DNA of 38,551 nt from Leucoraja erinacea. Taxonomy: Eukaryota. Position numbers and translations under genes: made by a program. The stretch lies in assembly GCF_028641065.1 (NCBI RefSeq), contig NC_073410.1:13268001-13306551 (forward strand), read 5' to 3'. Under the pieces are notes generated by a model. It was given only the letters and a program-made list of their open reading frames with translations, was not told where the DNA came from and searched no databases. Of the stretch, positions 3,040-35,118 are shown piece after piece. How positions within the stretch are numbered: the stretch's first letter is position 1; each line of letters opens with the position of its first letter.

Positions 3040-3212
3040 CATAGCTTTCGTTAATTTGTTCTATGTGCCTTTTCATTATCCCTTGCTTCCCTCTCCCCTG
3101 ACTCTGTCTGAAGAAGAGTCTCGACCCGAAACGTCACCTATTTCTTTTCTCCAGAGATGCTGCCTGACGCGCTGAGTTACTCCAGCATTTTGTGTCTTAT
3201 CTTTGGTGCAAA
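3040..3212 (+). mobile_element. Penelope-like terminal repeat (pLTR) fragment with hammerhead motif, in SCD intron
   Basis: ctgaagaagagtctcgacccgaaacgtc...cagagatgctgcctg...gctgagttactccagc; same sequence follows a GIY-YIG remnant at 18.0-18.5 kb. Confidence 0.75.
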
Positions 3213-4222
3213 TAGGAATACATGAGCTGCCAGAAATGGAGGTCTGGGGATTGGAGGTGCCAGGAATGGTGTTGGTGAGGATATGGAGGAACAATTTTGA
3301 AATGTGAAATCATCTGAGAACAGAGCCCTGTTGAGAAGGGTTGATGAGTGAACAGGGCTTTTGTGTGTCAGTTTGAGCTGCAGTGTTTTGGATCTGCTCC
3401 AGTTTGGAGATGTTTGTATTGCAGACTGGGAGTGTGTGTTGGAATAATCGCAATGCAAGGCCATTGTGCAATGAACCTGGACCTCTGCGGTCAGGTTGCC
3501 AATAGGACAGTGAGTGCTGGCTGCTGTCTCCTTGAGAATCAAACCTTGTGCATTCCTTTATCACAATGTAGCCAGATTCAAAACCTTTGCCTTGAGTTAT
3601 TGGGTGAAAGGTGAATATGCCTGTAGCTGTGGGGGAACCAAACTAATGAAATGTCACTATGTATACTGTCTGAAGGTTGTTTGAACGATACAATGGAGCA
3701 CTGAGCAGTTATTTTGTTGTTCATGTTCTTTCCACAATTTGTATTCCCTACTGCATTTTACTCAAAACTCTGAGGGAAGATCTGCATAAATATTCCCTCA
3801 GCCCCTAAAGTAACCCAGCAAATCTCTGGAGGATTCAGCTCTTTACATCTGAAATTGTTTGTTTGACTTTGGTCTCTTAATCAATTTAACAGGCACATGT
3901 TTCTCCTCGAGGGAACTGTACCTACGGCCAGAAACAATACAAATCTATTGTTTTGGGTTAATATGGATTTTTTTTCCTTGTAAATTTAGGCTCGATTGAA
4001 CTCTGCTACTTGGGAAACTGTTAATAACCGTCCTCCTTGCCCTGCCCCCAACCTAACACTGAAAAACCACCACAATTTGGTGAATATCTTTCCCTTGGTA
4101 TAATACTTCATAAGGCCCTTCACACAGGAGCAATTGGACAAGATTTAATGCTAACCCAAGTTAGAAAGCATCAAGTTACAGAAAGCTTAAAACTTGGCAG
4201 AGCTAGATTTTTGAAGACGTAT

Positions 4223-4514
4223 AGCCCTGTCCCACTGTACTAGTTCATTTAAGAGCTCTCCCGAGTTTTAAAAAAAAATCTCCAACTCGTGGTAAGCACG
4301 TAGAATGAACGTAGCGGGTACGTCGGGGACATCTCTTAGCGGCTCGTAATGCTAACGGCAGGTACTTGGGAAACGCAGTAAACTCGGGAAGACTCGTGAA
4401 GATTTTTCAACATGTTGAAAAATGTCCCGAATACCATTACCGTAAATCTCCGAGTTCGAATCAGGGCAAACTCGGGAGAACTCTTTGAATGAACTCGTAC
4501 AGTGGGACAGGGCT
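4223..4514. mobile_element. PIF/Harbinger-like MITE, family A
   Basis: 18-bp perfect TIR AGCCCTGTCCCACTGTAC extending imperfectly to ~45 bp; internal 22-bp palindrome at 4402-4423; homologous to 20207-20524. Confidence 0.85.
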
Positions 4515-5334
4515 TTTAAAGTTTTGGTGATCAATTCCAAGTTTTGGGGTAATTGTGGTGCTACCAATAACAACAACCCAATAATTGTTGTAGTGCCAGA
4601 TTTATTTGTAATGAGGGAATGAAAGGTAGGATTGGTTGATGGGGCTTGACAACAGGAAAGCACTATCCACCCATCTTGTGGATCAGTGTCAATATTTGAG
4701 CTGTGAAATTATTAACCTTCAGCCATTTAACTGAAGGTCTCTGAACTGAATACATACCCGAGCAGCCCCAAGGCCATTTGGTTATCAGCTGCACTGTTGC
4801 AGACCAGGCTTTGATTTAAGCATTCAGTTGTTGCTGTCAAAATCAACTCTATTTCATACAGCAGCAAAGAGCTTTACATAATAAAGGCAAGCAATGCTGT
4901 AGTAACTCGGCAGGTCAGGAAGCATCTCTGGAGAACTGGGATTGGTGATATTTTGATATCAGGACCCTGTGTTTCTTTCATAATGTGTGTTGTATAGCAT
5001 GTGGGCACTAGTTAAGGTTGTGGTTCAAATACAGACCCCCCCCCCCCCCCCCCCAGGAAACCATCTAGTTCATGAGCTTTAGTCTATGCTGTGAGAAATA
5101 CATCTTGTTTGGCATTGCAGGAATACATTTGTGGGAAGGCAGTTGACAAAGCATTGTCCTCCGGTCAAGGGTGGGTTAGGTCATGGTCACGTGTGTGCTG
5201 TTGAACATGGAAAATAATGGAAGCCAGGCTGGTACCAGTGGTTTCACTAGTCTTAGCCCACAATGTTACACGGGGTATGAGAGCGGACCTATTATAAGCA
5301 ATAATAAAATCCAAAATGCTGGAAATAGCTCCTG

Positions 5335-5550
5335 AGAGATGGAACAGAATTAGGCCATTCGACCCATCAAGTCTACTCTGCCATTCAATCGTGGTTGATC
5401 TATCTCTCCCTCCAAACCCCATTCTCCTGCCTTCTCCCCATAACCTCTGACAGCCACACTAATCAAGAATCTATCTATCTGCCTTGAATATGTCCACTGA
5501 CTTTGCCTCCACAGCTTTCTGTGGACAAGAATTCCACAGATTCACCACCC
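5335..5550 (-). mobile_element. CR1/HER1-type LINE 3' end
   Basis: Reverse complement of the CR1 ORF2 C-terminus (VVNLWNS...) plus 3' UTR. Confidence 0.8.
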
Positions 5551-6914
5551 TTACAAATACTAGCATCTGTGAAGTGAAATTGAGCGTGGATGGTGGTGTC
5601 ATGACCAGTTGGGCTTGTGCTGGTGAAGGGGTGTCTGGTTCATAATTCTGATGTCTGAAACATTAGCTGATTCTCTCTCCACAAATGCAACTTGATATGT
5701 CAAGTATTTTCAGCTTCTGCAATATTTTTGTTTTAAGAGCAACATTTATCAATTTGAAAGACGTACACTGCTGGAGCAGCTAACTCAGTAGCTCAGGCAA
5801 TATCCCTGGGGAACATGGTTAGCTGACGTTTTGAGTAGCAACCTTTATTCAGACTAAAATAACTCAACAAGTGCCCTGACCAGAAATGTCACTTATTCAT
5901 GTTCGCCAAGGTAGCTGCCTGGCTCGCTGAGTTACTCCAACATTTTTTTTCTCATCTTGGTAAACCAGCATCTACAGTTCCTTGCTTCTACATTCTTAAT
6001 TGAAATTGAAAATTCTACTTTTGTAGGAGTATTGTAACTATACAGCACAGTAACTGGGGCCCTTCGGCCTGCCACGACCATCCACCTATAAAAGTCCAAT
6101 TGTCCTTCAGTGGGACTGTATCCTTTTGTGGCTTGCCTATAATGAATGCCTCTTAAACATAGGGGTTTGTAACTAATTCCACCACCTCCAGCAGCAAGTT
6201 CCAGACAGTTTGGGATAAATAAAAGGACTTGCCCCTTCTACCATCTTTTGAAATCTCCCTTCTCGCCTTAAACCTATGCTCTTGTGTTTTATACCACTAC
6301 CATGTGAAAAGGCTATAATTCTCTGTCCTATCTCAACCTGTTTTATAATTTTATGCACCTCTATTGGGCCTCCCTTTGGCCTCCATCTCCCCAAGGGAAA
6401 CAAACCCAGCCTGTCCACTCTCTCACTAAATCCCACTAAACCCAGCAACATTCCAGTTATCTGCATAAATCAGCAACTTTTATAAAATCGGTTACTTGCA
6501 TCTTATTTGACCACATACTGCCTTTTGTTGGCCAGTGCCCGACTCAAAATAGGTTTTATGGCCCATCTTACAGGAAGGAGGAGAGGGTGTTTGGGTGATA
6601 GTGGAACCGGAAGCCAACTTTGGAGCCAAATTGTGGATGAAACAGTGTGCGATATCCCACAAATTCTGTTGAAAGTGGAGTAATTGTGAGGAAGTTGGGT
6701 CTTTAAATGGTCCATGGAGGTTGTTTTAATTGAGGTTTAGTCTCGAGGTGGCACCTGCATCAATCAACAAAGAAGAAATAGTGCATGCTTCAGGGGAGGT
6801 TCAACTTCATGCAGACATTAATGCTGGAATTAAGTCGGGAACTGCCTCCATGAGAACGAGGAACAGTGCTTAGTCACAATTGGCACTTCAGGCATTGTAT
6901 CTATCTGCAAACTT

Positions 6915-7216
6915 TACTTTAGAGATACAGCAAGGAAATGGGCCCTTTGGCCCAGCAAGTCCATGCTGACCAGCAATCTCCATGCACTGGCACTTATTTG
7001 ATGAAATCCCAACATCCTACACACACACACACAAGAGACAATTGACAATTTGTTTTAACCAAAGCCAAAATAACCTACAACCCTGCACTGTATTTGGAGT
7101 TTGAGAGGAAACCGGAGCTCCCGGGGAAAACATGCAAACTCCATACAGACAGCACCCGTAGTCAGGATTGAACCCGGGTCTCTGGCACTGTAAGGCAGCA
7201 ACTCTACCACTGTGCC
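6915..7216 (-). mobile_element. HE1-like V-SINE
   Basis: Head, V-domain and tail match the other copies. Confidence 0.8.
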
Positions 7217-7554
7217 TCCCTTTACTTTGCATTCAGAAAGGAGCTGGCTGGCATTCAGATCCGGGGTTATATTAGTGAATTTGCTTTTCTGATGGCTCTG
7301 TGCCCAGTGCTGGGGTGAGGAACATAAGATTGCCAGCTCTGGAGCTGAAAAGTGGTAATTTCTCTACTTGGTGAAAACTGGAGACAGTGAAGATATTAAA
7401 TAGCAGTTTAGCGAGGTTACACAAGATTGTTTTTTTACAATAGTATTTCAATTAATTGATTTTATTTATACATTGTTTTGGATCTGTTACACTGTTGTAA
7501 GTAAGAATTTAATTGTTCTGTTGGTACATATGACAAATAAACATTTGACTGGAG

Positions 7555-7952
7555 GTGTAGAAACAAAGAACTGCAGATGCTGGTTTATACCAAAGATAGA
7601 CACAAAATGCTGGCGGTGTCTCTGAACCTCTGGAGAAAAAGGATGGGTGCCTTTTCGGGTCTGAAGAAGGGTCATAAGGAATAGGAGTGGAATTAGCCCA
7701 TCAAATCCTCTGCTGATTTATCTCTCCCTCCCAACCCCATTCTCCTGCCTTCTCCCCATAACCTCTGACACCTGTTCTAGTCTATGCCTTAAAAATATCC
7801 ACTGGCTTTGCCTCAACAGCCTTCTGTGGCACAGATTCACCAACCCTCACAAAGATCTCGATCCGAAACGTCGCCTCTTTTTTTTTTTTTTTTTTTTTTG
7901 TTCCTCCAGAGATGCTGCCTGACCCGCTGAGTTACTCCAGTACTTTGTGTCT
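7555..7952. mobile_element. PLE pLTR pieces interrupted by a CR1 3' end (7672-7846, minus strand)
   Basis: ctgaagaagggtc is broken by CR1 tail sequence and resumes with ctcgatccgaaacgtc...gctgagttactccag. Confidence 0.7.
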
Positions 7953-8095
7953 GCTCTTGGCTGTAGGGCTGGATATTTGTCGGTTGGGTAATTCTGGTGA
8001 TGACGGGGTTGCTATTGTTTTGGTTACATTTCTGGGTTCGCCCTTATCGTTGGCAACTTGATGCTGAGAATTTTTCCCCCTCGTGCTTTTTGCAG

Positions 8096-8295
8096 GTGAA
8101 GGATTCCACAACTACCATCACACGTTCCCGTACGACTACTCGACCAGCGAGTACGGGTGGCGAGGAAACATCACCACCTGCTTCATCAACATATCGCGTT
8201 GGCTCGGGCTGGCCAGTAATTGTAAGGTGGCCTCGCATGAGGTGATCTTGGCCCGCAGGAGGAGAACTGGAGACAGCAGCACCAGAAGTGGCTGA
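8096..8295 (+). CDS. scd: Stearoyl-CoA desaturase, terminal coding exon
   Basis: Acceptor gctttttgcag|gt; splices in frame to the upstream exon (G|GT = Gly). Encodes GEGFHNYHHTFPYDY (third His box) through ARRRRTGDSSTRSG*, with TGA at 8293-8295. The 200 coding nt and the terminal -SG favour SCD1 over SCD5. Confidence 0.97.
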
Positions 8296-9675
8296 GGGCG
8301 CTCAAGTGAGCAGACTCAACGTACACTGTTGCTCCCCAAAATGCCAAAGACTCCACCAAGTCACGAAGGCAGTTTTGTCAGCAGTTATGATTTTTAAGGT
8401 GGAATCCTTTTTAAGAAGTCTCCTCTCTCCACGTTACCAGTAAACTGATGAAAGATTTGAGAATAGCAGGCGGCTGTAAATAACAATTGTGCTTCATTGT
8501 TGATAGTAGACAGTAGGTTCTTGCTCAATTTTGGAATTGACACCTTACTGAATGGTAATCTTTGGGGCATCTGGTTTGTCGCTTGTTTCTCCAGAACTGT
8601 TTCGTAACAGTGTTAGCTCCCAACACCCATCCATTCTTACCTCTGCTTCAAAGTCTCCTTGCACAGGTAAAGATTTTGCATTAAAGGATTCCATCTTAAC
8701 TCTCAGCGCAGCCAGGTGCAAACGATACAAATTTAAGGGAAAAAAAAAAAAAAAAATACTGGATCAGAGGGAAGTGCTTTTTGTAAATATTTGGCAGAGT
8801 CTGCCAACGTCAATGATATGGAAATGATTTGGATTGGGATGATCATTCTTCTCAAATGCTGGCTGCTCCCAGAGCTTGCAACAGTGGATGGCATGCCATT
8901 CATTGCCATCTATTACACATTTCAAGTATATGGTCTCATTCCATACTGTATCACTTTTGCCCATTGCCTTTTGTAATAAGTTGGATTTTAAGTTTGTGTT
9001 TGTTAACAGTGTGCCGTAGATCACTAGCCGCACTCATATTTATTTTGTCTGCATTTGAGTTGCGTATTGGCCTTAAGACCACTCAACAGTTCCAGCACCT
9101 CCCACACCAACCCTGATCCATCCCAAGCTCGCCAGTACTTTTTTTTTTTTTTTTTTTTTTTTTTGCCCGATGAAAGCAAATGCTGAGCGACTAACCATTG
9201 ACCATCAAGCATTTGACACTATTGCATTTTCCCCATTCCCCTCCCCACTTCAATTTCTTGTTAACCCACGTAACAGTTCTAACTTAAACTGAAATCCATG
9301 GTCTAGCCTCCATTAAGGGGGAGGGGAAGAAATGAGCTTTGGCACACATTGTGCTCTGTACACTATTGGACATTGACTGATGGACAGTTTGCACCAAATG
9401 TTTGTAAGCGTGAGAATCTACCTGCACCAAACACAATCTTTCTTTCTAATACTCAGTGTATCAATATACAGGTTCGCCTGTGGTCTTTTCTGGAGTTGGA
9501 ACTTTAGATGGTCAGGGATGTACTGTATATGAAGTTTCCTTTGGAAGATGCTTTGTTCTGAGATTTTTTTTTTCCAGTCTTTGAATTTCCTTTTGGTGTA
9601 AGGTGTGATGCCATTGTCTTTTGTGTGACTGAATGTTGTGCTTCAATAACCATGCGGAAAGTTAATAGTAATATA

Positions 9676-9693
9676 ATTAAACACTATATTAAA
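9676..9693 (+). terminator. Candidate proximal poly(A) signals (2x ATTAAA)
   Basis: ATTAAA at 9676 and 9688 in an AT-rich patch. Confidence 0.35.
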
Positions 9694-11014
9694 AACAAAA
9701 ATCTCTCGCTGTTGAAGTTGTCCCAGGTTGCCAGGGCTGATTCAAGTTTCCCAAAGCCATTGGGAACTTCAGGAGTCTGGGAGAAGGCTCCCAACCCAAA
9801 ACGTCATACATCCCTTGTTTGCCAGAGATGCTGCCTGGCCCGCTGAGTTACTCCAGCACTTTGTGTCCTTTGCTCCTGGAACCAGCTTGTTGCACAGCCT
9901 TGGTCCAGAAACAGCAGCTCCTGCATCCTCCCACAGTACAACTTGATCTCCAGAGAATACAAACCAGGCTGGGTATGGCTTTTTTTTTTTTTTTTTTTCC
10001 TCCTCCTCTCTCCATGTTCTTGGGTGTCTCATAAATTGGCAATTGAGATGTCCGTTTGCCCTCCATGTCAAGCTGCAGCATCAGCATTTGGGTGATTTGA
10101 TTCTAACCTCTGCTCCAGTACCTCCCTGTGTGGTGGTTCCTGTTCATTGTGGTGCCTCTGGAGTGACTCCTCTCAGCTGGACCAGCGGTGCAGATCCAAG
10201 CGCCAAGGAATGATCTTTAATCGCTTGGTCATGAGTTGACTCCAAATGGGTTTAATTGATGGCTCGGACGTTTAAAGCAAATTGAACTCCTGCTGAAAGG
10301 GACCTGACTCAACAATGGACAATGCCACAGATATTCCATTATGGGTTTGAAATTGATTACAAATTGAGCTTTTATTTCAAACTGACCTCGCCTGCTCGGG
10401 GGTGTGACCTCTGCCCCTTATCCACCTGTCCCTCATGTGGCTGCGGACATGCTTAGTTTTACGCAGATCAGATAACTTGCCCGAGTCGGGAGCTGCATTG
10501 TACCGCTGATGTATGCTGTTATCCCCCCCTCCCTCCCCCCCCCCCCCTAATGTGAATGCCACTGACCCAATCATATAACAATCAAAACATTCCTTTCACC
10601 TGCAACCTTAATGATTCAGCTGGGGAGGAATGAGGTGAGAAGGTTTGACACCAAGTCACGGATGAATGGGATGTGCCATTCTAATTTATTTGATGAAATC
10701 CCTGCATCCCACCAGAATATTGGCGGTGGGTCTGCAGGCGCCCAAGTCTATTAAACCATGGGACAGAACCCCAACTTGCCTTTTGCTTGATGTGTGTACT
10801 TAACAAGAGCTTGAAGAACAACTAACCATCTCGCCGATCAGCAAGTCTGAGCAGACTAGTCTCTGCTTTATTAAAGTCAATGTCCCTATAGTGTGGCAAT
10901 CTCCTGTTCACCAACACTGTAGTCTGGAACCTGCTGTGAATCATGTTATTGTGTAGATCTTGATGCACTTGTATCAGTGTCACTTGTTCCTATTTTAACA
11001 GAGGCAATATTTAA

Positions 11015-11020
11015 AATAAA
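11015..11020 (+). terminator. Canonical polyadenylation signal (distal)
   Basis: AATAAA followed by tcctttctttgttttatatttt (U/GU-rich downstream element). TE-dense DNA resumes ~120 bp later. Confidence 0.65.
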
Positions 11021-11142
11021 CAATTTAACTTCCTTTCTTTGTTTTATATTTTCATTCATACTTTTGGTAAGGAGATCCGAGGATTAGCTGTGCTCGTGAC
11101 AAAGCATTGTGTCGAAGCAGTGCAATAGCTCACTTCTCAAAT

Positions 11143-11430
11143 GGCAGCACAGTGGTACGATCGGTAGAGCTGCTGCTGCACTGTGCTAGAGACCTGGGTT
11201 CAGTTCTGTGTGGAGTTTGCACGTTCTGCCTGTGACCAGGTGGGTTTCCTCTGGGTGCTCTGGTTTCCTCACACTCCTTTTTGGATGCGGGTGTTTGTAG
11301 GTTAATTCGCCTCTGTAAATTACCCCACGTGTCAGCAGTGGATTGGAAAGGGGGTTAAGCTAGAACTAGTGAGATTGATGGCGAGCATGGATTTGGTGGG
11401 CCAACCATTTCCATGCTGTACCTCTAAACT
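11143..11430 (+). mobile_element. V-SINE
   Basis: ggcagcacagtggt...gtagagctgctg...ggagtttgcacgttct...tctaaac. Confidence 0.8.
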
Positions 11431-11607
11431 TAAGTGTATCAATCCGAATGATGTTTCAATGTGACCCCTGCTCCAGCGTAACAAATCTCCATTATTTCTT
11501 GCAGAAATGCTGCAATTATTCAGCAGCTTTGTATGCTTTCTCAACTGCACTGAACATGTGCTGTCATTTTAAGAGTACACCTACCATTCTAACCAAAAAC
11601 ACCGATT

Positions 11608-11805
11608 CTGCGTTCTCCCCGTGACATTCTGGGTTTTCTCCGAGATCTTTTTTTCTCCCACACTCCAGACGTGCAGGTATGTATGCAAATTAGGTTGGTG
11701 TATGTGTAAATTGCCCCTAGTGTGTGTAGGATAGTGTTAATGTGCTAGTCGGCACGAACTCAGAGGACCGAAGGGCCTGTTTCCGTGCTGCATCTTTAAA
11801 CTAAT
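11608..11805 (+). mobile_element. V-SINE 3' half
   Basis: V-domain and tail match the other copies. Confidence 0.75.
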
Positions 11806-12048
11806 CTTTGTTCCTCTGGTACTCTCCCAGTTATTGTTCTTGCTACTGCTACCTTGCCAGGACATGGGTCCCAGCCCTGTTGAGCAGCACCATGCCTGGC
11901 TACAGGTACCACCTTCCCTGGACATGGTCCCAGTCCACTAAGAATTTAAGGCTCAATCTCTTTGGCTTTGTGCAAACTTACATGTGATCTCAATGTCCTG
12001 AAACAGCTACCTCTGTGGTCCTGCACTTGAGATTCTGTTTTCATGTGT

Positions 12049-12076
12049 CTGAAGAAGGGTCTTGACCCGAAACGTC
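12049..12076 (+). ncRNA. Minimal type I hammerhead ribozyme-like motif (intact core) in PLE repeat
   Basis: CTGAAGA-A-GGGT-CTTG-ACCC-GAAA-C-GTC. Both conserved core boxes, 4-bp stem II, palindromic ACGT stem III and a GUC triplet are present; stem I is weak. Confidence 0.55.
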
Positions 12077-12273
12077 ATCCATTCCTTCTCTCCAGGGATG
12101 CTGCCTAACCCACTGAGTTCCTCCAGCATTTTGTCTATCCAAGATTCCCACATCATGCCTGTTGGTCTGTCCTTCTACCAAGTACACCATACATGCCCCT
12201 CAAAACATCCTACACCTGCTCAATTATATCCCAGATCTCGGAATTGGATCTATTTCAGACATACAACCACAGG

Positions 12274-12514
12274 TTTTTTCACACGGTGGTGAATCTCTGG
12301 AACTCTCTGCCACAGAGGGTAGTTGAGGCCAGTTCATTGGCTATATTTAAGAGGGAGTTGGATGTGGCCCTTGTGGCTAAGGGGATCAGAGGGTATGGAG
12401 AGAAGGCAGGTATGGGATACTGAGTTGGATGATCAGCCATGATCATATTGAATGGCGGTGCAGGCTCGAAGGGCCGAATGGCCTACTCCTGCACCTAATT
12501 TCTATGTTTCTATG
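12274..12514 (+). mobile_element. CR1/HER1 LINE 3' end
   Basis: Translates VVNLWNSLPQRVVEASSLAIFKRELDVAL (CR1 ORF2 end); ends in ttctatgtttctatg tail. Confidence 0.88.
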
Positions 12515-24489: not shown

Positions 24490-24660
24490 TCCCCATTTTA
24501 ATTCCCCTTCCCATTCCCACACTGGCCTTTCCGTCCTGGGCCACCTCCATTGCTAGAGAGAGGGTACATGCAAATTGGAAGAACAGCACTTCAGATTCCA
24601 CTTAGACAACTAACAACCCAATGGTAAAAACATTGAAGTAATCAATTTTAGCTAAACTCT
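24490..24660 (+). mobile_element. Degraded PLE GIY-YIG fragment
   Basis: HFNSPSHSHTGLSVLGHLHC*...KLEEQH; homologous to 18055-18230. Confidence 0.72.
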
Positions 24661-24737
24661 CACCCTTCAACACAACTACATCCTACAATTCCTCCCCCTT
24701 CTGTCATGGGGGTAGACTGAGACTGATTGATTCCCCC

Positions 24738-24772
<35 letters not shown>

Positions 24773-25299
24773 CTTTTGCACATCCCCCAAGCCTACCCTC
24801 TGGTCCTTTTAATTTCATGTTAAACTCTGAACATCAATAGCCCATTATCTGTTTATTTGCACTTTATCTGTTTATTTATACATGTATGTATATATTTATA
24901 TAATGGTATATGGACACATTGATCTGTTCTGTATTCATGCCTACCATATTCTGTTGTGCTGAAGCAAAGCAAGAATTTCATTGTCCTATCTGGGACACAT
25001 GACAATAAACTCACTTGAATCTTGTATGTTTCATGTATTTTGTGTTTTTTATGGCATGTTGGCAAATCAATTTCCCTCCTAGGATAAATAAAGTTCTATT
25101 GTATCGTACCCCCCTCTGATTTTGCTCTAGTACTGGGATTTTTTCACAATGTCAGCAAATTACACGAAGCAGAGCATGATGAGAACCTAATTAGAGGAAG
25201 CCATGGATTTGTAGATCAGGTTTCATGTATAACAGGGATTATCTGAATCATTCTCCAGTATCCCCACCCTCTGTCAGCCACAAATGAGGACAACCAGAT

Positions 25300-26190
25300 A
25301 AACACACCATGCTGGAGTAGCTCAGCGGGTCACTTCACTTCACTTTATTGTCATGTGTACCGAGGTACAGTGGAAAGCTTTTGTTGCGTGCTAACCAGTC
25401 AGTGGAAGATTACAGTCGAGCCATCTCTGGAGAAAAGAAATAGGGAATTCAGACGGTGTCTGAAGAAGGGTCTCGACCAGAAACGTCACCTATTTAATGG
25501 CCCCAGTTATGCTGTCTGTCTCGCTGAGTTACTCCAGCATTTTGTGTCTATCATCGGTGTAAACCAGCATCTGCAGTTCCTTCCTACACATGTGGACAGC
25601 CAGATTGGCCTATTAACAAGGGACCCATATACTGCAAGCACAAACCCACACAGGGGCACACATGGACCCAGTAATTCATTCAACCGGGGCCTACTTGAAG
25701 CTGAGTCCCAGTAAGACAATAACCAAACCCCAGTGTAGAAGCTAATTGCATAACATGGATAGGTGACGTCTCAGGTTGGGACACTTCTTCAGACAGTCTG
25801 AAGAATCGAAACAGAAGCATCACATCCGAAACGTTGCCTATCCATGTTCTCCAGAGATGCTGCTTGACCCACTGAGTTACTCCAGCACTTTGTGACTTTT
25901 TTTCCTGACCCAAAGTATCACCTGTCCATTCCCTCCCCTGATGCTGCCTGACATGCTGAGTTCCTCCAGTCCTTGAGTAAAACCCATGTGCTGGAGTAAC
26001 TCAGCAGGTCAGGCAGCATTTGTGGGGCGAATGGACAGGTAGAAACGCAGGTGGCCGCAGTGGCAAATCTGGGTCAGAACAGGGTGGGAAAGCAGCCGGA
26101 CTCACAGAACGAGGGCAGTGACAGAGAGGGACTGGCTGAGTTACTCCAGCACTTTGTGCTTTACTGAAGACCCCAGCATCTGCAGTTCCT
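25300..26190. mobile_element. Cluster of PLE pLTR copies in both orientations
   Basis: At least 6 copies of gctgagttactccagc or its complement; hammerhead-like core at 25460-25487. Confidence 0.7.
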
Positions 26191-26239
26191 TGTGTGTCCT
26201 CCTGCGCCTTTCGTTTTGTTGAAGTTAATTTTGTAACTT

Positions 26240-26720
26240 TTCCTCTGAGTGAGATCCGCCCTGAAAGTAGAAAACGGTGGTGCGATATTTAATAGGCAAT
26301 TATTTAAATGACTGCGGCCAGGATGACACATTCCTCACCTCACCAGCTTGTGCCTGGTGATGTTATTTCCCCACATGATGTGTGAGTGGGCTGTGTAGAA
26401 GAGCGGGCTGTACGTGCACTGTAGCTAGCCGGGCCGGCTCAGTCACAGTGTTGCATCAGCCTCGCTGACCGGGTTACTGCGGGTCACCGCGCTCTGCCCC
26501 CCCCCCCCCCCCCCCCCCTCTCTCTCTCTCCCCCTGTCTCTCTCACATTCACTCTCTCCATTCACTGCGGCCGGGGGCAGGCGCCACAGCTCCTGATGGA
26601 TGCGCGGCCAATCGCAAGCAGGCAGCGGCTTGTATGATGCGGCTCAGCAAATAGGAACGAACTGGCACAAGCCGACTGGAAGTTATTCATTTCTTCCTGG
26701 AACGGAGGCGGTCAGGTGTT
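26240..26720. promoter_or_regulatory. CpG-rich promoter/enhancer-like island
   Basis: Not similar to other repeats in the window and retains many CpGs. Contains a GC box (gatccgccc), TACGTG, GTTGCATCA, a C/CT tract and GGCCAATCG. Confidence 0.45.
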
Positions 26721-26730
26721 GCTGGCGTGA

Positions 26731-26916
26731 TGTGGCTAGTGGCTGCTGGGGTGATGTGCCCGGTGTGTGGCTAGTGGCTGCTGGGGTGATGTGCCCAGTG
26801 TGTGGCTAGTGGCTGCTGGGGTGATGTGCCCAGTGTGTGGCTAGTGGCTGCTGGGGTGATGTGCCCTGTGTGTGGCTAGTGGCTGCTGGGGTGATGTGCC
26901 CTGTGTGTGGCTAGTG
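26731..26916 (+). repeat. 35-bp minisatellite, ~5 copies
   Basis: Unit TGTGGCTAGTGGCTGCTGGGGTGATGTGCCC(A/G/T)GTG starting at 26731, 26766, 26801, 26836, 26871. Confidence 0.95.
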
Positions 26917-27665
26917 AAGTGACCAGAGACTGCTGGTGTAAAGTGACTAGTGACTGCTAGTGTGAACTCACTAGTGACTGCTAATGTGAACTCATTAGTG
27001 ACTGCTGGTGTGAACTCACTAGTGACTGCTAGTGTGAACTCATTAGTGACTACTGGTGTGAACTGACTAGTGACTGCTAGTGTGAACTGACTAGTGACTG
27101 CTAGTGTGAACTCATTAGTGACTGCTAGTGTGAACTGACTAGTAACTGCTAGTGTGAACTGACTAGTGACTGCTGGTGTGAACTCACTAGTGACTGCTCG
27201 TGTGAACTGATTAGTGATTACTAGTGTTCACTCACTAGTGACTACTGGTGTGAACTGACTAATGACTACTGTTGTGAACTGACCAGTGACTGCAAGTGTG
27301 AACTTACTAGTGACTGCTAGTGTGAACTGACTAGTGACTGCTAGTGTGAACTCATTAGTGACTGCTGGTGTGAACTCACTAGTGACTGCTAGTGTTAACT
27401 TATTAGTGACTGCTAGTGTGAACTCACTAGTGACTGCTGGTGTGAACTCACTAGTGACTGCTGGTGTGAACTCACTAGTGACTGCTAGTGTGAACTCATT
27501 AGTGACTGCTAGTGTGAACTCACATTAGTGACTGCTGGTGTGAACTCATTAGTGACTGCTAGTGTGAACTCATTAGTGACTGCTAGTGTGAACTAACTTG
27601 TGACTGTTGTGTGATGTGGCCACTGATGTGACTAGTGACTGCTGACTAGTGATTGCTGGTGTGAA
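26917..27665 (+). repeat. 24-bp minisatellite, ~30 copies
   Basis: Unit CTAGTGACTGCT(A/G)GTGTGAACTCA; produces the spurious TASVNSLV repeat ORF. Confidence 0.95.
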
Positions 27666-27679
27666 ATGATTAGTTCAGT

Positions 27680-27940
27680 GTAGTTTATAGATCCAGCATG
27701 GAAACAGGCCCTTCTGCCCATCGAGTCCATGCCAACCAACCCATACACTAGTTCTATTCTATGCACCAGGGACACTTTACAGAAACCAATTAACCTACAA
27801 ACCCACCGGTCTTTGGAATGTGGGAGGAAACCAAAGCATCTGGATAAACCCCACACAGTCACAGGGAGATCATGCAAATTCTGTACAGACAGCACCCATA
27901 GTCAGGATCAAACTCAAGTGTGTGGCGCTGTAAGGCAGCA
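27680..27940 (-). mobile_element. V-SINE
   Basis: Reverse copy of the SINE consensus. Confidence 0.8.
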
Positions 27941-27964
27941 GCTTGCACTAATGATGTTCACAAA

Positions 27965-28262
27965 TTATAGGAGTAGAATTAGGCCATTCGGCCCATCGAG
28001 TCCACTCCGCCATTCAATCATGGCTGATCACTGCCTCCTAATCCCATTTCCCTGCCTTCTCCACATAACCCTTGACACTTGTACTAATCTAGAACCTGCC
28101 TTAAAAAAATATCCACTGACAGCCTCCATAGCCCTCTGTGGCAATGTTCCTCCTCACCTCCTTTCTAAAAGAGCGCCCTTTAATTCTGAGACTATGAACT
28201 CTGGTCCTAGACTCTCCCACCAGTGGAAACATCCTTTCCACATCCACACTATCTATGCCTTT
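27965..28262 (-). mobile_element. CR1 LINE 3' end
   Basis: aggccattcggcccatcgagtc... tail family. Confidence 0.72.
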
Positions 28263-28337
28263 CTATGTTGCTAGTGACGTTACCAGTGACTGCTGGTACA
28301 AAGGAGGAGGGATTGCTGGTGCGATGTGACCAGTGTC

Positions 28338-28607
28338 TGGCACAGTGGGGCATCTGGTAGAGTTCCTGCCTCACAGCATCAGAGACCCGGGTTCAATCCC
28401 AGCCTCGGGTTTTGTCGGTAGTTTGCACGTTCTCCCTATGACCACGTGGATTTCCTCCCCGTGCTCCAATTTCTTCCCACATCTCAAAGACGAGCCGGTT
28501 TGTAGGTTAAATGGCCTCTGTAAATTGTGTAGGGAGTGGATGAGGAAGTGTGTGGGCCGATGGTCCTGTTACCATGCAGCATCTTTAAAACTATAACTAA
28601 ACTAAAA
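28338..28607 (+). mobile_element. V-SINE
   Basis: Head, V-domain and ctaaactaaa tail. Confidence 0.8.
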
Positions 28608-28904
28608 CTGCTGATGTGATGTGGCTAGTAATGTCTGGTTGACAACACATCCATGCATTTGAAATAATTAGATTTCTCGCTGAGCTAAATGTATTCCTCA
28701 GCCTCTGTGATCAGACGGATTGCAATTTCCCTTAAACTCGTCAATACAATTTAGAAGTCTGATGGAGTTTTTAGGAGTCTGAAGAAGAGCCCCGACCTAA
28801 AACGCCACCCATCCTTTTCCTCCAGAGATGCTAGCTGACCCACTGAGTTCCACCAACACTTGGTATAATGGTATATAGCATGGTATATAATGGTCTATGG
28901 TATA

Positions 28905-29132
28905 AACACAGAGAGTGGTGAATCTGTGGAATTCTCTGCCACAGAAGGTAGTTGAGGCCAGTTCATTGGCTATATTTAAGAGGGAGTTAGATGTGGCCCT
29001 TGTGGCTAAAGGGATCAGGGGGTATGGAGCGAGGCAGGTACAGGATACCGAGTTGGATGATCAGCCATGATCATATTGAATGGCGGTGCAGGCTCGAAGG
29101 GCCAAATGGCCTACTCCTGCAACTATGTTTCT
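28905..29132 (+). mobile_element. CR1/HER1 LINE 3' end
   Basis: Near-identical to 12274-12514. Confidence 0.85.
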
Positions 29133-29457
29133 AAACTAGCATCCGCAGTTCCTTTCTACACAATTTAATTTAGAACTTTGCATAATGCTTCAGTCCAAGG
29201 CTTCACGTATAATTGCATTGAATGAATCCTACACAACTGCTGTCTGCTGTTTCAACATATTTGTAATTTGACGACAGTTCTTTTTGTGTATGGACGACTC
29301 CTGTTCCTGCCAAGTCTCATCGCTCGTGTATATCCACAAACTTCCTTGATCATAATCCTTCCCCGAGCACCAACATTCCCTCAGACACTGATGTCTATCG
29401 ACACTTCCCTGAAACACATCTCCCTGCTCCTAATATATAGGGCCCACTTCCTTAATA

Positions 29458-29730
29458 ACCATATAACCATATAACAATTTCAGCACGGAAACAGGCCATC
29501 TCGGCCCTACAAGTCTGTGCCGAACAACTTTTTTTCCCCTTAGTCCCACCTGCCTGCACTCATACCATAACCCTCCATTCCCTTCTCATCCATATGCCTA
29601 TCCAATTTATTTTTAAATGATACCAATGAACCTGCCTCCACCACTTCCACTGGAAGCTCATTCCACACCGCTACCACTCTCTGAGTAAAGAAGTTCCCCC
29701 TCATATTACCCCTAAACTTCTGTCCCTTAA
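29458..29730 (-). mobile_element. CR1 LINE 3' end (second family)
   Basis: Reverse strand reads FFTQRVVAVWNELPVEVVEAGS; atataacc tail repeat. Confidence 0.8.
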
Positions 29731-30346
29731 TCCTTCATGTCCTTAATCCATTGAGCAGAAAATAAAATCACAGATAACAAATTAACCCAGACACAGGGGG
29801 TGCCAAAACAATTAAACATCGCAGACAAAATGCAGCACAAGCACTAAATGGGGCCTGGAGACCAAGGCCAGAGGAAAAGGTGCCAGAACAGAAAGGTCCC
29901 GACACCAGAGTCCAGAGAGCCAAAGCTCACAGGCAAAGTTTCAGCCAAAGGATTGCTTCATTCTGCCAGTAGTTTCAGATAGGGAAACGTCCCAGTTAGT
30001 GAAGTGGCCCATACAGAGTTCAGAACTGCAGATGCTGGTTAATATGCAAAAGGACACAAATTGCTGGTGTCACTCAGTCTGAAGAAGGGTGTCGACCCGA
30101 AACATCACCCATTCCTTCTCTCCAGGGATACTGCCTGTCCCGCTGAGTTGCTCCAGCTTTTTGTGTCTATCTTTGATTATTGTAAGGATTTTAAATTATG
30201 TCAAAGCTCCAAGGCAGGCAGAATACAACCAGTCAACTTCCTATTTACAGGCTATCCCTGGATTAAAAATGCTCAAATTATGGACACCCACTGAGTGAGC
30301 TCCCATGATAATATTATATTCAGAAGACTGACATCTGTATGTATTT

Positions 30347-30658
30347 AAGAAAGAACTGCAGATGCTGGAAAATCGAAGGTACACAAAAATGCTGGAGAAA
30401 CTCAGTGGATGCAGCAGCATCTATGGAGCGAAGGAAATAGGCAACGTTTCGGGCCGAAACCCGGAAGGGTTTCGGCCCGAAACGTTGCCTATTTCCTTCT
30501 GGGTTTCGGGCCGAAACGTTGCCTATTTCCTTCTGGGTTTCGGGCCGAAACGTTGCCTATTTCCTTCTGGGTTTCGGGCCGAAACGTTGCCTATTTCCTT
30601 CTGGGTTTCGGGCCGAAACGTTGCCTATTTCCTTCGCTCCATAGATGCTGCTGCACCC
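30347..30658. mobile_element. Fold-back PLE pLTR insertion with internal 34-bp tandem array
   Basis: Inverted arms, five 34-bp units (30467-30635), and a 20-bp direct repeat actgacatctgtatgtattt at 30327-30346 and 30659-30678. Confidence 0.85.
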
Positions 30659-30934
30659 ACTGACATCTGTATGTATTTTGTTTCCTACAAACAGCACAGC
30701 GATGAGTCTTGATCGGTCTTTCAGCCGACTTGTATATATTCTTCACATGCCAAACCTTTAAGGGCCATTTCTGGGGAGTTTTTACTAAAACTCTAATCTC
30801 CCTCACTGCAGCTGTGTTGTCCAGTCATTCAAATTTGCCTTCTAGACCTCGAGTCAACCTGTGAACAGGAAGCCCAACTCTTGTCACATGTCACTAATTG
30901 CTTTGTATGTAAATGAATCACTACTGACGACAAC

Positions 30935-31310
30935 CAAAGATCCTGTAGCAAAGCAAGATAGATCACTGGTTGACAAAGACGTAGTACGGTCATGGGCAGA
31001 TTCATGGGTAATTTTCGACCCCATTTCTGTAACCGGCTTCCGTCTCCGCACCAGAGATCCCGTAGCGGAGCTGGTGCGGAGACGGAAACATCCTCGTAAA
31101 AATAAAAGTTTGTTGGTAAAAATCTTCTCCTCATTTTCAGAATTATAATTTATTAACACAAACTGTTCCCCTGCAACGTTGATTACATTGCGTATCGGGT
31201 CGGGTTACTTAAATGGATGAAAAAAAGGCCCACGTTCCGTTCCGTTGCGTATTACACATCAGCCCATTGCATTTAGGAGTGGTCTATCTTGCTCCGCTAT
31301 AGGATCTTTG
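30935..31310. mobile_element. Non-autonomous DNA transposon (376 bp), P-superfamily-like termini
   Basis: 33-bp imperfect TIR CAAAGATCCT(G/A)TAGC..AGCAAGATAGA.CACT; 8-bp TSD acgacaac/acggcaac. Confidence 0.8.
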
Positions 31311-31470
31311 ACGGCAACAGCAACGTGTCTGCCTTTGACCTCAGTCACATGAGTTTGCTTCAATGTCGACTCTGCAACATCTTCACTTTCAAATGCAGTG
31401 TACACAGTGCCTCCGCTTTTCACAGCATCGCTGGTATTGAATTCAATGCCATGTATTCAAGGGAGAGTTA

Positions 31471-31677
31471 AGGGCCCGTTTGGTTGCCGTCATTTGCGCG
31501 TCATGCAGGTGGCGCACGAAGATTTTGTGAATCCCAAATTCCCGGGGCGCCGCGCGTCACTGCCTACGTCACCACGCCTCACCGCACGCCATGCACGCAT
31601 CACGTGTGCGTCACGACACACGCGTAAATTATATCGCGTAAATGACGCGCAAATGACGCCCAAGTGGGACAGGCCCT
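31471..31677. mobile_element. PIF/Harbinger-like MITE, family B (CpG-rich)
   Basis: TTA TSD on both sides; TIR agggcc...cgtcatttgcgcgtcat; homologous to 37235-37438. Confidence 0.82.
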
Positions 31678-31760
31678 TTAGATTTATCTCTTAGGCTTAA
31701 CGGAATCAAGGGATATGGGGAGAAAGCAGGGACGGGGCGATTACTGATTTTGGATGATCA

Positions 31761-31960
31761 TGTGGTGGTCCCTGGGGGGTAGGCCACTCCTTGGATCATC
31801 CCCCTCGACGATTGAGGGACAGGGCGTAGGTCTGCCACGGGGTTTACCGGTCGACTCCCGAGGGGTAGAGATAAGAGTGTCGGTGTGTGTTCTTGAACTG
31901 TTGGAATTAAAAAGCTTCTTTTGAATCCGGTCTTTTCCTGACCTTGACCAGGCCACTGCA
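31761..31960 (+). mobile_element. Solo LTR (200 bp) inserted in a CR1 3' tail
   Basis: TG...CA termini (tgtggtgg/ccactgca); 4-bp TSD ATCA splitting the CR1 motif ggatgatcagcc; internal ATTAAA. Confidence 0.8.
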
Positions 31961-32184
31961 ATCAGCCATTATCATATTGCTGGCTCGAGGGGCCGAATGG
32001 CCTACTCCTGAACCTATTTTCTATGTTTCTATGTTCATATGTTTCTGTGTACCTTATCCCCCCCCTATGATTTTGTCTTTGTTTTTTGATTAATTACATG
32101 TCTGCACTGAGTAGGAGCTGCTTTTAATCTCATTGTACATGTGTATAGTGACAATAAAATGGCATTATTATTATTATTATTATT

Positions 32185-32585
32185 CATACCATTGGGTTGT
32201 AAGCTACCCAAACTAAATATATGATGCTGTTCCTCTAGTTTGCGTCGGGGTCACTGGCTAGAGTGAGACCTCACGCAGACTAGAGTAACTGCGCCCCATA
32301 TTCTGTTTGGGTCGCTCACAACGGTGTGAACATGGAATTCCTCAATTTTAAGTAATAGTTCCCTTCCCCTTCTCTCTTTCCTGTACCTCCACCCATTCTT
32401 CCCACTCTTGTCCCTCTCCCCCCCCTCCCCCCCTCCCCCAATCCTCTTCCACCAATATCCCTCCCTCTGCCTTTACACTTCACTTTATCTAAAACCTTCT
32501 TGTCATCTTTCCGCTTCCAGCCATCGTCCACCCATCTGCCAGTCACAACCTCCTTCACCTTTACCCACCTATCACTTGCCAGACT
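32185..32585. mobile_element. Divergently oriented PLE GIY-YIG/3' UTR remnants
   Basis: Minus strand 32185-32245 reads RKLEEQHHIFSLGSLQPNGM; plus strand from 32318 reads NGVNMEF followed by a C/T-rich UTR. Confidence 0.65.
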
Positions 32586-33386
32586 TTGTCTATCTTAAAT
32601 GTATCAACAGTTCGTTTTATTCCCTTCAATGTTCCTTTTCTGGTCACTTGCTGACTGTCACCCATGTGACTGACCCCCTCCCCACAACAGCCAGCGGGGA
32701 GAGCTATAGAGACCAATCTCCATCTAGTGGACTCAAAAATAAATTCCTTGCCCTCAAAACCAAACAGTTGGAGCGTACAGAGGGAAACAGCACCGCCATG
32801 TGGAGACATCTGGGATGTATGTGCAACCTGGGCTCATTGGTGAACTGTAGCTAGTAAAAAGCAAAGATCCAGGGAGGATAGCAGGCCGGCAAGGGGGGGA
32901 GAGGTCCATGAAGTTGGTGATGGGAGATGGGGCCGTCACTGGACTGCAATGAGTCTTCACCAGCAAAAAATGGCCCTAGACAGAGGCTCCGTGTCATGGT
33001 GTGCCCAGAACTCATCGAGGTATAAACTAGTGGATACAATGGTACGGTGTCTGCTGAAATAAGGCCTCACTCAGTCTGAAGAAGGGCCTGACCTGACCCA
33101 TCACCTGTCCATGTTCTCCTGAGATGCTGCTTGACCCGCTGAGCTACTCCAGCATCTTGTACCTTTGCGTAAAGTATGTTTGCGATGGTCCCAACTCACG
33201 GGATGTGTGCTCAATGGGATTCGCTCCCCCTCACTGTCCTTGTTGCCTGATCTCTATTTCAGGTACTAGGTACCATTCATGGAGAGGCTGGGAAGGAAGA
33301 AACTCTAATGCAATCATGGAGCTAGAATAGAACCATGGTGCCCATGTAGACTCCCCAGATTAATCTGAGATGAATCTATTTTTTTC

Positions 33387-34660
33387 ATTGTATATTGTAT
33401 TGTATTGTATTGTATTGTATATCTTTATTGTCATTTCCTGAGTATTCACATACCCAGAGGAAACAAAAAAACGTTGCTCAACCAGTGTCCATTCAGTGTG
33501 CATTAAAAATAAATAGAAATAAAAATACATGTATCATGAACAAATTTAACACTCTACTAAACATTCAACAGGCATTCCGATCGGCAGCGGCACAACAGTG
33601 GCTCTGCTGCAGTGTGTCCAGGTTGGTGGTTGGTGCGCGATACTTTGGCAGGGGGCAAAGTCCGTTTATCAGTCTTATAGCCTGTGGGAAGAAGCTGAGG
33701 AGCATCCTGCTGGTTTTGCAGCTAATGCTCCTGTACCTCTTCCCAGATGGCAGGATGGAGAATATGTGATGCGATGGGTGGTAGGGGTCTTTGATGATGG
33801 AGATGGCTCTGCTGATACATCTCTTCCTGTATATGTCCAGCAGGAAAGGGAGTGGAGCACCAATAATCCTGCTGGCGGTCTTCACAATCCTGTCTAGTTG
33901 GTGCCGTTCGTACGCCTTGCAGCTCCCGAACCAGGAAGTGATGCCGTAGGTCAATGTGCTCTCGACAGTCCCCCTATAAAAAGTCCGTAGGTGTGTGGTG
34001 GGGAGGCCTGCTTTACGTAGTCTTCGGAGAGGGTGTAGTCGCTGCTGGGCTCCCTTGACCAGAGCTGTGGTGTTGGCCGTGGGCGTCAGGTCATCTGACA
34101 GATGTAGTCCTAAGAACTTTATGCTGCTGACCCTTTCCACATCAGCTCCATCGATGTGCAGAGGTGTATGGTGTTGTTTCCCCGCCCTCCTGAAGTCAAC
34201 CACCATCTCCTTAGTTTTTCCCACGTTGAGAATGAGGTTGTGGGATTTGCACCAACCTGTGAGCAGCTCCACCTCCATCCTGTATGCCGACTCATCATTG
34301 TCACTGATGAGACCCACCACTGTTGTGTCATCAGCGAACTTGTTGATGAAGTTGTTGTTGAGTCTGGCAGTACAGTCGTGTGTCAGCAGACTAAACAGCA
34401 GGGGGCTTAGGACACAGCCTTGGGGTGAGCCAGTGCTCACGGCTATGGTTTTTGATGTCCTACTGCCCACCCTGACTGTCTGCTGCCGTTGCGACAGAAG
34501 GTTCAGGACCCAGTTGCATGTGCCAGCATCAACCCCCAATAGCTCCAACTTCTCCACCAGCTGCTGCGGAATGATTGTATTAAAAGCAGAGCTGAAGTCT
34601 ATGAAGAGGATCCTGGCATAAGTATTTTTCCGATCAAGGTGTGACAGTACGAGATTCATC
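33387..34660 (-). mobile_element. 5'-truncated Rex1/Babar LINE with (CAATA)n tail
   Basis: Uninterrupted RT ORF, short 3' UTR with aataaa, and tattg repeats at ~33390-33420. Confidence 0.92.
33565..34659 (-). CDS. Reverse transcriptase C-terminal part (non-LTR, Rex1/Babar), 364 aa, N-truncated
   Basis: Motifs [47 protein letters not shown]. Confidence 0.9.
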
Positions 34661-34989
34661 CTCCATACTTCGCAAGTGTTTATGCTGCCATTGCCACTTA
34701 CATTGTGTGACCACTCAACAGATCAACTCCTTACTCTTCCCAAGCCTGACTCCACATGTTTGCATTGTTATTTACATTGTCAGACCTACCCCAACAGACT
34801 TCCCTGCCCACAGCTCGTGCCAGATAGCACATGACATGTGTGTGAAGGAACTGCAGATGCTGCTGCAGATACAGATGCAGATAGCACACAGCAGCCTTCC
34901 AAAGTCAACTGATTAAAAAATAGAGATATCCTACACAGGCCCTTCAGCCCACTGAGTCTGCAAAAACCATCAAGCACCATTTGTCTGAA

Positions 34990-35118
34990 GTCTGAAGAAG
35001 GGTCTCGACCCAAAACGTCACCCATTCCTTCTCTCCACAGATGCTGCCTGTCCCTCTGAGCCACTCCAGCTTTTTGTGTCTATCTTCGGTTTAAACCAAC
35101 ATCTGCAGTTCCTTCCGA
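34990..35118 (+). mobile_element. PLE pLTR copy inside a degraded SINE
   Basis: ctgaagaagggtctcgacccaaaacgtc; GAAA is mutated to AAAA. Confidence 0.75.

What the first reader, a model, noticed from the sequence alone, without database searches (positions are those of the whole stretch)
3040..35118. Dispersed Penelope-derived repeat carrying a minimal hammerhead ribozyme motif
Seen: a ~130-bp repeat occurs more than 15 times and begins CTGAAGA-A-GGGT-CTCG-ACCC-GAAA-C-GTC (variant CTGA(A/C)GA-A-GGGT-TTC(G/A)-GCCC-GAAA-C-GTT). The best cores are 12049-12076, 22584-22611 (-), 25460-25487, 30079-30106, 3108-3135 and 14717-14744. Established: this fits the hammerhead consensus CUGANGA/stem II/GAAA/NUH; an extra A after A9 is tolerated in the CChMVd viroid hammerhead; and PLEs are known to carry minimal type I hammerheads with a palindromic stem III that cleave as dimers. 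Inference: most copies here lack any ORF, so they may be a high-copy non-autonomous, retrozyme-like family in this lineage. The two subfamilies keep stem II paired (T-A vs T-G closing pair, different loops), suggesting structural selection. Caveat: stem I pairing is weak by eye.
Basis: partly seen in the sequence, partly recalled or inferred. Interest (0 to 1): 0.8.

Follow-up and report, generated by a model that had tools for sequence, protein, structure and literature searches.

The report
Penelope-element end repeat with minimal hammerhead
This very common 130-letter repeat is the end piece of a known kind of jumping gene (a Penelope-like retrotransposon) that carries a known miniature self-cutting RNA motif; most copies look like short by-products of that element's copying rather than a separate family.

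Summary
The repeat is real: 35 profile hits in the window, an estimated 0.9 million fragments in the genome and 59,188 exact matches to an intact minimal hammerhead core. It fits the published minimal type I hammerhead of Penelope-like elements (PLEs). It is the terminal repeat (pLTR core) of Neptune-type PLEs. It lies about 100-250 nt behind RT + GIY-YIG ORFs for both stem-II subfamilies, and in partial tandems it runs into the inferred ORF start. It fails the retrozyme tests run here: arrays are rare, no solo-specific variants were found in the two groups that could be tested, and copy ends are not enriched at the cleavage site. ORF-less copies often carry 9-14 bp target duplications (21 of 87). 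Their 5' ends cluster at the hammerhead's 5' edge, and they end at two 'tail' sites. Most likely they are short cDNAs copied from an internal RT start to the RNA's 5' end (inferred). Stem covariation is not significant, stem I is 2 bp, and cleavage is untested. Verdict: a new member of a known kind, unusual in scale.

The parts
12049..12076 (+). Intact minimal type I hammerhead core (subfamily A) in a solo copy, about 12046-12146
22482..22612 (-). Solo full-tail copy (subfamily B, GUU triplet) with an intact core at 22584-22611
22613..22621 (-). Upstream half of a 9-bp target-site-like duplication of the 22482-22612 copy (8 of 9 match)
22473..22481 (-). Downstream half of that duplication
18126..18236 (+). 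C-terminal fragment of the PLE GIY-YIG endonuclease ORF
   Evidence: (74,278 first-look candidates genome-wide)
18237..18398 (+). Pyrimidine-rich spacer between the ORF end and the hammerhead
18399..18479 (+). Decayed unit linked to the ORF end: a 5'-truncated PLE 3' end
3040..3218 (+). Copy with a spacer remnant; core at 3108-3135 has a stem II mismatch
14712..14848 (+). Solo subfamily B copy; core at 14717-14744 has lost the palindromic pair
34985..35118 (+). Solo subfamily A copy with full tail (G12 mutated); a short inverted tail piece lies upstream near 34845-34862
5755..6003 (.). Head-to-head inverted pair of units joined at the hammerhead's 5' edge
21456..21749 (.). Two units head to head, about 80 bp apart
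25413..25594 (.). Inverted piece plus forward unit; core at 25460-25487 has G10.1-C11.1 broken
25752..26040 (.). Cluster of inverted and partial units
30016..30196 (.). Inverted tail piece plus forward unit; core at 30079-30106 has lost the palindromic pair
30335..30694 (.). Subfamily B fold-back insertion: a perfect 30-bp hairpin at 30433-30496, then four 34-bp tandem repeats of a partial core that lacks CUGA
37..33166 (.). Further dispersed copies or fragments at 37-130(-), 4871-4968(-), 7549-7661(-), 7846-7973, 9772-9902, 12772-12875, 15458-15571, 16797-16941, 20784-20894(-), 21435-21465, 24122-24217(-), 25296-25332(-), 26131-26195, 28771-28866, 33068-33166

Best explanation
The repeat is the pLTR core of endonuclease-bearing (Neptune-type) Penelope-like retrotransposons. 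It is a 130-nt stretch that follows the ORF after a variable pyrimidine-rich spacer (shown) and, in partial tandems, leads into the next ORF (shown). It begins with a minimal type I hammerhead (sequence fit shown, cleavage not tested) and ends in two 'tail' positions (shown), which by analogy with the Anolis PLE are internal RT start sites (inferred). The element's RT primes on a nicked target and copies uncleaved RNA from a tail site. It very often stops a few bases upstream of CUGA, most simply because the RNA begins there (inferred; the site is Inr-like by a recalled consensus). The short cDNA is joined to the target with a 9-14 bp duplication (solo copy), folds back (inverted pair) or jumps to another place in the element (deletion form). 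The hammerhead rides along as the element's own processing motif. It would need a dimer or protein help, and it decays by CpG loss in about 90% of genomic copies.
For: 25 of 30 loci with the endonuclease end have the unit downstream. A 727-aa RT + GIY-YIG frame with a Cys motif in the linker lies about 120 nt before a B unit, and L038 links RT motif YIDD, the endonuclease and an A unit. 14 of 18 loci with the post-tail leader show unit or tail directly before it, read by eye. There are two 3' end clusters, as described for PLE tails. 77 of 228 spacer-less fragments start in the five columns at the hammerhead's 5' edge, against 10.5 per five columns inside; 43 against 8.4 without the reference's first column. 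Only 9 start at the cleavage site (background). 21 of 87 solos have target-duplication-like flanks against 0.8 in permutations. Most of the 15 joints shown from RNA reads and contigs end at the same CAGT. G replaces the second upstream base in 17 of 54 solos against 2 of 58 ORF-linked copies (p 8e-5), as expected from non-templated addition at an RNA 5' end (inference). No column separates solos from spacer-bearing copies in groups A and B.
Against: No transcription start was observed: the read lay listed no place where many molecules begin or end (fragmented single-cell libraries, a weak test). The spacer also looks like a 3' splice acceptor, and in D. virilis Penelope the start site lies upstream and an intron ends at helix I. 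The oldest clusters are almost all solo (35 solo against 3 spacer-bearing), so a solo-only lineage there is not excluded. 66 of 87 solos show no detectable duplication. Diverged spacers missed by my library would inflate the 5'-edge peak. Arkhipova 2013 argues for antisense templates and self-priming.
Confidence: 0.62

Rival explanations
1. The spacer's end is a 3' splice acceptor, as in D. virilis Penelope. Short copies and joints arise because RT stalls or switches on splicing intermediates or spliced RNA at that acceptor. A donor-like site about 35 nt after the tail would frame the unit as an exon of about 165 nt (possibly back-spliced).
For: 58 of 64 ORF-linked copies have A then G just before the unit; the median pyrimidine share of the preceding 38 nt is 0.76. 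AAG|GTATG follows the tail in 12 of 18 loci. An intron ends at helix I in D. virilis.
Against: No exact spliced joint for two candidate donors in the ORF end (0 of 3 matches; 0 of 2). For the post-tail donor, 3 of 6 matches were exact, not above a rough chance value of 1.8. No GT..AG joint among the 15 joints shown from RNA; 151 were not shown. Solos share no upstream exon. PLEs retain introns, so the DNA tests are weak.
Confidence: 0.17
2. The ORF-less copies are a self-propagating non-autonomous family (SINE-like or retrozyme-like) mobilised in trans by the PLE protein, possibly through hammerhead-cut, circular RNA.
For: Half of sampled copies are solo (103 of 204), with defined ends and target duplications. 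The repeat is abundant in RNA (about 0.34% of records laid). Non-autonomous PLE derivatives are described. Old clusters are nearly all solo.
Against: Only 19 tail-to-head joins against 59,188 intact cores (A-type tail only). 5 of 148 sampled copies have a same-strand neighbour within 400 bp. No solo-specific columns and equal divergence in groups A and B. No enrichment of ends at the cleavage site. Solos lack the sequence downstream of the tail, which the Anolis PLE needs for insertion in vitro.
Confidence: 0.15
3. The copies are ordinary randomly 5'-truncated PLE ends; the apparent shared 5' boundary is an artefact of fast-diverging, low-complexity spacers.
For: Spacers vary from 99 to 251 nt and differ strongly between lineages. 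Some 'solo' copies have pyrimidine-rich upstream DNA.
Against: Target duplications place the boundary within 0-8 nt of the hammerhead in the 21 cases found. Inversion and deletion joints hit the same four bases. Young B solos, about 96% identical to their group majority, have unrelated upstream DNA.
Confidence: 0.06

Closest known systems
[quoted passage not shown]
   Same: CUGANGA, one unpaired base, G10.1-C11.1, GAAA, palindromic CG, UH. Located at the 3' end of PLE ORFs and scattered as single motifs. GUU triplets and 2-bp helix I also occur in their Fig. S3; their Acropora Neptune motif has the same layout.
   Different: 59,188 exact cores here against about 4,000 (coelacanth) and 9,000 (X. 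tropicalis) there, with different search patterns and genome sizes. Stem II is only 4 bp. I saw no cartilaginous fish in their list.
Neptune clade EN+ PLEs (Craig et al. 2021, PMC8557442; passages read)
   Same: Single RT + C-terminal GIY-YIG frame, Cys motif in the linker, 5' truncation, partial tandems, inverted 5' copies, optional 30-40 bp tail.
   Different: Here the leader-length insertions outnumber long copies by far. Clade assignment rests on the linker motif, not on a tree.
Poseidon_Ac of Anolis (Frangieh et al. 2024, PMC11167929; parts 1-2 of 4 read)
   Same: Two internal RT start sites define the tail; uncleaved RNA is the template; no RNA ends seen at the cleavage site.
   Different: There the ORF starts inside the hammerhead; here the inferred start is about 35 nt behind the tail. 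They do not discuss a shared 5' boundary of short copies in the parts I read.
Animal non-LTR retrozymes (PMC7229834, passages; bioRxiv 10.64898/2026.07.22.740005, parts 1-3 of 5, supplements closed)
   Same: Type I hammerhead, no ORF, derived from PLE pLTRs; 'monomers' are dispersed over chromosomes.
   Different: Defined by tandem units that each hold a hammerhead and by circular RNAs. This repeat is dispersed, solo or inverted, with a minimal core.

Membership tests
EN+ Penelope-like element pLTR (Neptune type) | Lies at the 3' end of an RT + GIY-YIG ORF | tested here: met
   (RVT_1 E 9e-7; GIY-YIG E 0.08, below cutoff)
EN+ Penelope-like element pLTR (Neptune type) | Repeated upstream of the ORF in partial tandems | tested here: met
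   593 exact leader matches; 14 of 18
EN+ Penelope-like element pLTR (Neptune type) | Inverted 5' copies and optional 30-40 bp tail | tested here: met
   70 of 204 copies inverted; two 3' end clusters
EN+ Penelope-like element pLTR (Neptune type) | [quoted passage not shown] | tested here: met
   CNRKKCNTC in L141; criterion
EN+ Penelope-like element pLTR (Neptune type) | RT phylogeny within Neptune | not tested
   no reference set at hand
Minimal type I hammerhead of PLEs | Core CUGANGA-N-stem II-GAAA-palindrome-UH | tested here: met
   all six subfamily majority sequences; 59,188 exact matches; 17 of 177 sampled copies intact
Minimal type I hammerhead of PLEs | Helix I closing the core | tested here: inconclusive
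   only 2 bp; predicted pairing probability at most 0.002 in the monomer; 2-bp cases are published
Minimal type I hammerhead of PLEs | Covariation in stems | tested here: inconclusive
   one-sided U-A to U-G only; score equals shuffles, 239 of 500, on 18 copies
Minimal type I hammerhead of PLEs | Self-cleavage as dimer or with protein | not testable with these tools
   no pile-up of RNA ends, a weak test
Animal non-LTR retrozyme | Tandem units each with a hammerhead | tested here: not met
   19 tail-to-head joins genome-wide for the A-type tail; 5 of 148 close same-strand pairs
Animal non-LTR retrozyme | Lineage separate from ORF-bearing elements | tested here: not met
   groups A and B; the oldest group could not be tested
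Animal non-LTR retrozyme | Abundant circular or unit-length RNA | tested here: inconclusive
   no such joint among those shown; these libraries are unsuited
Rfam hammerhead families | Covariance-model match | tested here: not met
   no hammerhead family among 16 hits to E=10

The most novel reading that the evidence does not exclude
Hundreds of thousands of insertions record a 'strong-stop'-like step of PLE transposition in vivo. RT starts inside the 5' leader, runs to an RNA start just ahead of the hammerhead, and the short cDNA integrates by itself, folds back or jumps. That would explain solo pLTRs, dispersed minimal hammerheads and retrozyme 'monomers' as direct by-products of copying. It would also leave about 59,000 intact cores, many inside transcribed introns, that could cleave in trans as dimers.
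Probability: 0.35. Interest if true: 0.65.

Novelty: new member of a known kind. Interest (0 to 1): 0.4.

Why it matters
The motif and its host element are known. The value lies in scale and in what the ends record. About 4% of sampled DNA and 59,188 intact cores give a very large natural sample of PLE insertion products. The shared 5' boundary, two 3' ends and target duplications make the poorly understood PLE mechanism (where the RNA starts, whether the hammerhead cuts the template, how pLTRs and inversions form) testable with CAGE and in vitro priming. It also warns that dispersed minimal hammerheads should not be counted as retrozymes.

Tried and rejected
Rfam scan: no hammerhead. Pfam on short window and locus fragments: nothing for the PLE pieces. 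PDB by sequence: no relative of the ORF. Retrozyme arrays: rare. Solo-specific variants: none at p<0.01 in groups A and B. Ends at the cleavage site: background level. Spliced DNA copies for three candidate donors: none or chance level. Core conservation across subfamilies: 0 of 12 against 23 of 80 columns (p 0.033), but that used forced CpG restoration; one B lineage truly has GUU, and 1 of 12 gives p 0.17. At copy level the core is not clearly better conserved than downstream non-CpG columns (0.928 against 0.913, p 0.17). Predicted monomer folds bury the core in another hairpin, and z-scores against shuffles are near zero. Run search: no RNA holder listed. The read lay showed no pile-up of ends; its strand bias goes with poly(T) loose ends at a T-run in the spacer, probably oligo-dT priming on opposite-strand passengers (inference). 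Earlier scan notes: nothing returned. Lunse et al. 2017 is not held (known to me by recall only). Paper searches for hammerhead + cartilaginous fish + Penelope and for Penelope + pLTR + promoter + initiator + transcription start found none; the library lacks most subscription papers, and Repbase was not available.
Full report
Setting. The window lies in a 2.19-Gb genome and holds the last exons of an acyl-CoA desaturase gene among many repeats. The repeat landscape looks like that of a cartilaginous fish to me; this is recalled and comes from no call.

Observation. A profile built from copies finds 35 hits in the window and 257 in 600 kb taken as 60 arbitrarily placed 10-kb tiles. An earlier profile gave 0 hits on reversed sequence. 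This extrapolates to about 0.94 million fragments (bootstrap 0.74-1.12 million) and 4.2% of sampled bases. An exact pattern for the intact core has 59,188 matches genome-wide and 0 for the reversed control, in line with 17 intact of 177 sampled copies. Rfam reports no hammerhead.

The motif. Cervera and de la Pena (PMC4209133; main text parts 1-2 of 4 and two of three parts of supplement file 2 read, file 1 not searchable) define the metazoan PLE minimal hammerhead. It has CUGANGA, one unpaired base, a G-C pair opening stem II, GAAA, a palindromic pair and UH. All six subfamily majority sequences fit. GUU triplets and 2-bp helix I occur in their alignment too. Stem I here is 2 bp. Predicted monomer folds pair the purine-rich core with downstream pyrimidines: -7 to -11 kcal/mol against about -4 for the hammerhead fold, with stem I probability at most 0.002. 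Between subfamilies the only stem changes are U-A to U-G in lineage B. Covariation on 18 aligned copies equals shuffles. The apparent invariance of the core (p 0.033) drops to p 0.17 once the real GUU lineage is counted. So the motif is a convincing sequence member; selection on structure is only weakly shown and activity is untested.

The host element. The window itself has an endonuclease C-terminus at 18126-18236 followed by a spacer and a unit. Of 30 genome loci found with that peptide, 25 have the unit downstream; one of the 30 is the window's own locus and one miss was mis-oriented by my script. L038 links RT motif YIDD, the endonuclease and an A unit. L141 has a 727-aa open frame with RVT_1, a weak GIY-YIG match and a Cys-rich linker, followed after about 120 nt by a B unit. 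The Atlas places it with GIY-YIG/RT clusters of chordates at 0.98. The linker motif marks Neptune and Nematis elements (PMC8557442, passages); no tree was built. In L173 the unit's 3' half and tail run straight into the ORF's N-terminal region. A post-tail leader motif has 593 exact matches. Of 18 of these fetched (plus-strand matches among the first listed), 14 show unit or tail directly before it, read by eye. The unit is therefore the pLTR core: 3' end of one copy, 5' leader of the next.

Anatomy of short copies. Among 204 classifiable copies from the tiles and the window, 103 are solo, 70 have an inverted partner and 31 keep the spacer. 3' ends form two clusters about 35 nt apart. This is the PLE tail, which in the Anolis element marks two internal RT starts (PMC11167929, parts 1-2 of 4). 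5' ends peak at the CAGT just ahead of CUGA: 77 of 228 spacer-less fragments in five columns against 10.5 per five inside. Without the first column, which collects any missed spacer, the count is 43 against 8.4. Only 9 start at the cleavage site. Deletion and inversion joints converge on the same bases in the genome and in most of the 15 joints shown from RNA reads and contigs. Of 87 solos from all loci, 21 have target-duplication-like flanks of 8 or more matching bases against 0.8 in 60 permutations (maximum 3); the window copy 22482-22612 is one. An extra G upstream is enriched in solos (17 of 54 against 2 of 58).

Mechanism. Shown: location in the element, two 3' ends, a shared 5' boundary, duplications, uncleaved template. 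Inferred: RT starts at a tail site and runs off an RNA that begins at the Inr-like AGT (consensus recalled), and the 100- or 135-nt cDNA integrates, folds back or jumps. Longer copies come from read-through RNA. Against this, no start site was seen in RNA (fragmented single-cell reads, 1-3% of each run). The spacer also resembles a splice acceptor, as in D. virilis where the start lies 46 bp ahead of an intron that ends at helix I (PMC2377424 passages). Exact spliced joints were absent or at chance level for three donors, but PLEs keep introns. An antisense self-priming model is also in print (PMC3846280 passages).

Retrozyme test. Animal retrozymes are tandem units, each with a hammerhead, expressed as circles (PMC7229834 passages; bioRxiv 10.64898/2026.07.22.740005 parts 1-3 of 5, supplements closed; these cover one chondrichthyan and may bear on novelty). 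Here tail-to-head joins number 19 for the A-type tail pattern. Solos match spacer-bearing copies in divergence (B 0.956 against 0.955; A 0.891 against 0.902) with no differing column of 93 tested. The oldest group (35 solo, 3 spacer-bearing) could not be tested. The repeat is abundant in RNA (about 0.34% of records), most simply as a passenger in introns and UTRs (inference).

Novelty. The PLE pLTR hammerhead is known, and so are solo pLTRs and retrozyme monomers. My searches turned up no report of this family, of this copy number, or of short copies sharing a 5' boundary at the hammerhead; Repbase and subscription papers were not searchable. Verdict: new member of a known kind, interest 0.4.

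Noticed in passing
window 2566-2797 and 8096-8295 (+): Last two coding exons of an acyl-CoA desaturase (SCD) gene; the first matches solved SCD structures at E 5e-32. A sense unit at 9772-9902 lies just behind the presumed 3' UTR end.
   Followed up: partly
window 30433-30694: Perfect 30-bp hairpin at an inverted junction (z -14) followed by four 34-bp tandem repeats of a partial core: a small satellite born from the pLTR.
   Followed up: partly
window 26696-27640: Six 35-bp repeats running into about 30 copies of a 24-bp minisatellite.
   Followed up: no
window 33565-34722 (-): 385-aa open frame of a LINE-type RT (RVT_1 plus ALKBH8_N); related 3' ends at 21081-21438, 23027-23406 and 36165-36802.
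   Followed up: no
window 4223-4513 and 20207-20523: Two related 290-310 bp elements with terminal inverted repeats, MITE-like by eye; similar termini near 31460-31680 and 37230-37440.
   Followed up: no
window 24500-24650 (+) and 32160-32250 (-): Two more decayed PLE endonuclease ends with no unit next to them.
   Followed up: no
window, e.g. 1218-1500, 2170-2450, 13740-14020, 17410-17700, 20020-20640: Many copies of a SINE-like repeat of about 300 bp (families D9, D11-D13, D16-D18); tRNA-derived by recall only.
   Followed up: no
L173:1098-1115, L087, L072, L174-L191: A conserved donor-like AAG|GTATG about 35 nt behind the tail overlaps the inferred start codon; with the acceptor-like spacer end it frames the unit like an exon of about 165 nt.
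   Followed up: partly
L038:1713: 1,724 reads in one run carry poly(T) ahead of a T-run in the spacer: opposite-strand RNA primed or polyadenylated there.
   Followed up: no
L164, L169, L170: The element's N-terminal region holds a long proline-rich stretch of variable 26-bp-like tandem repeats.
   Followed up: no
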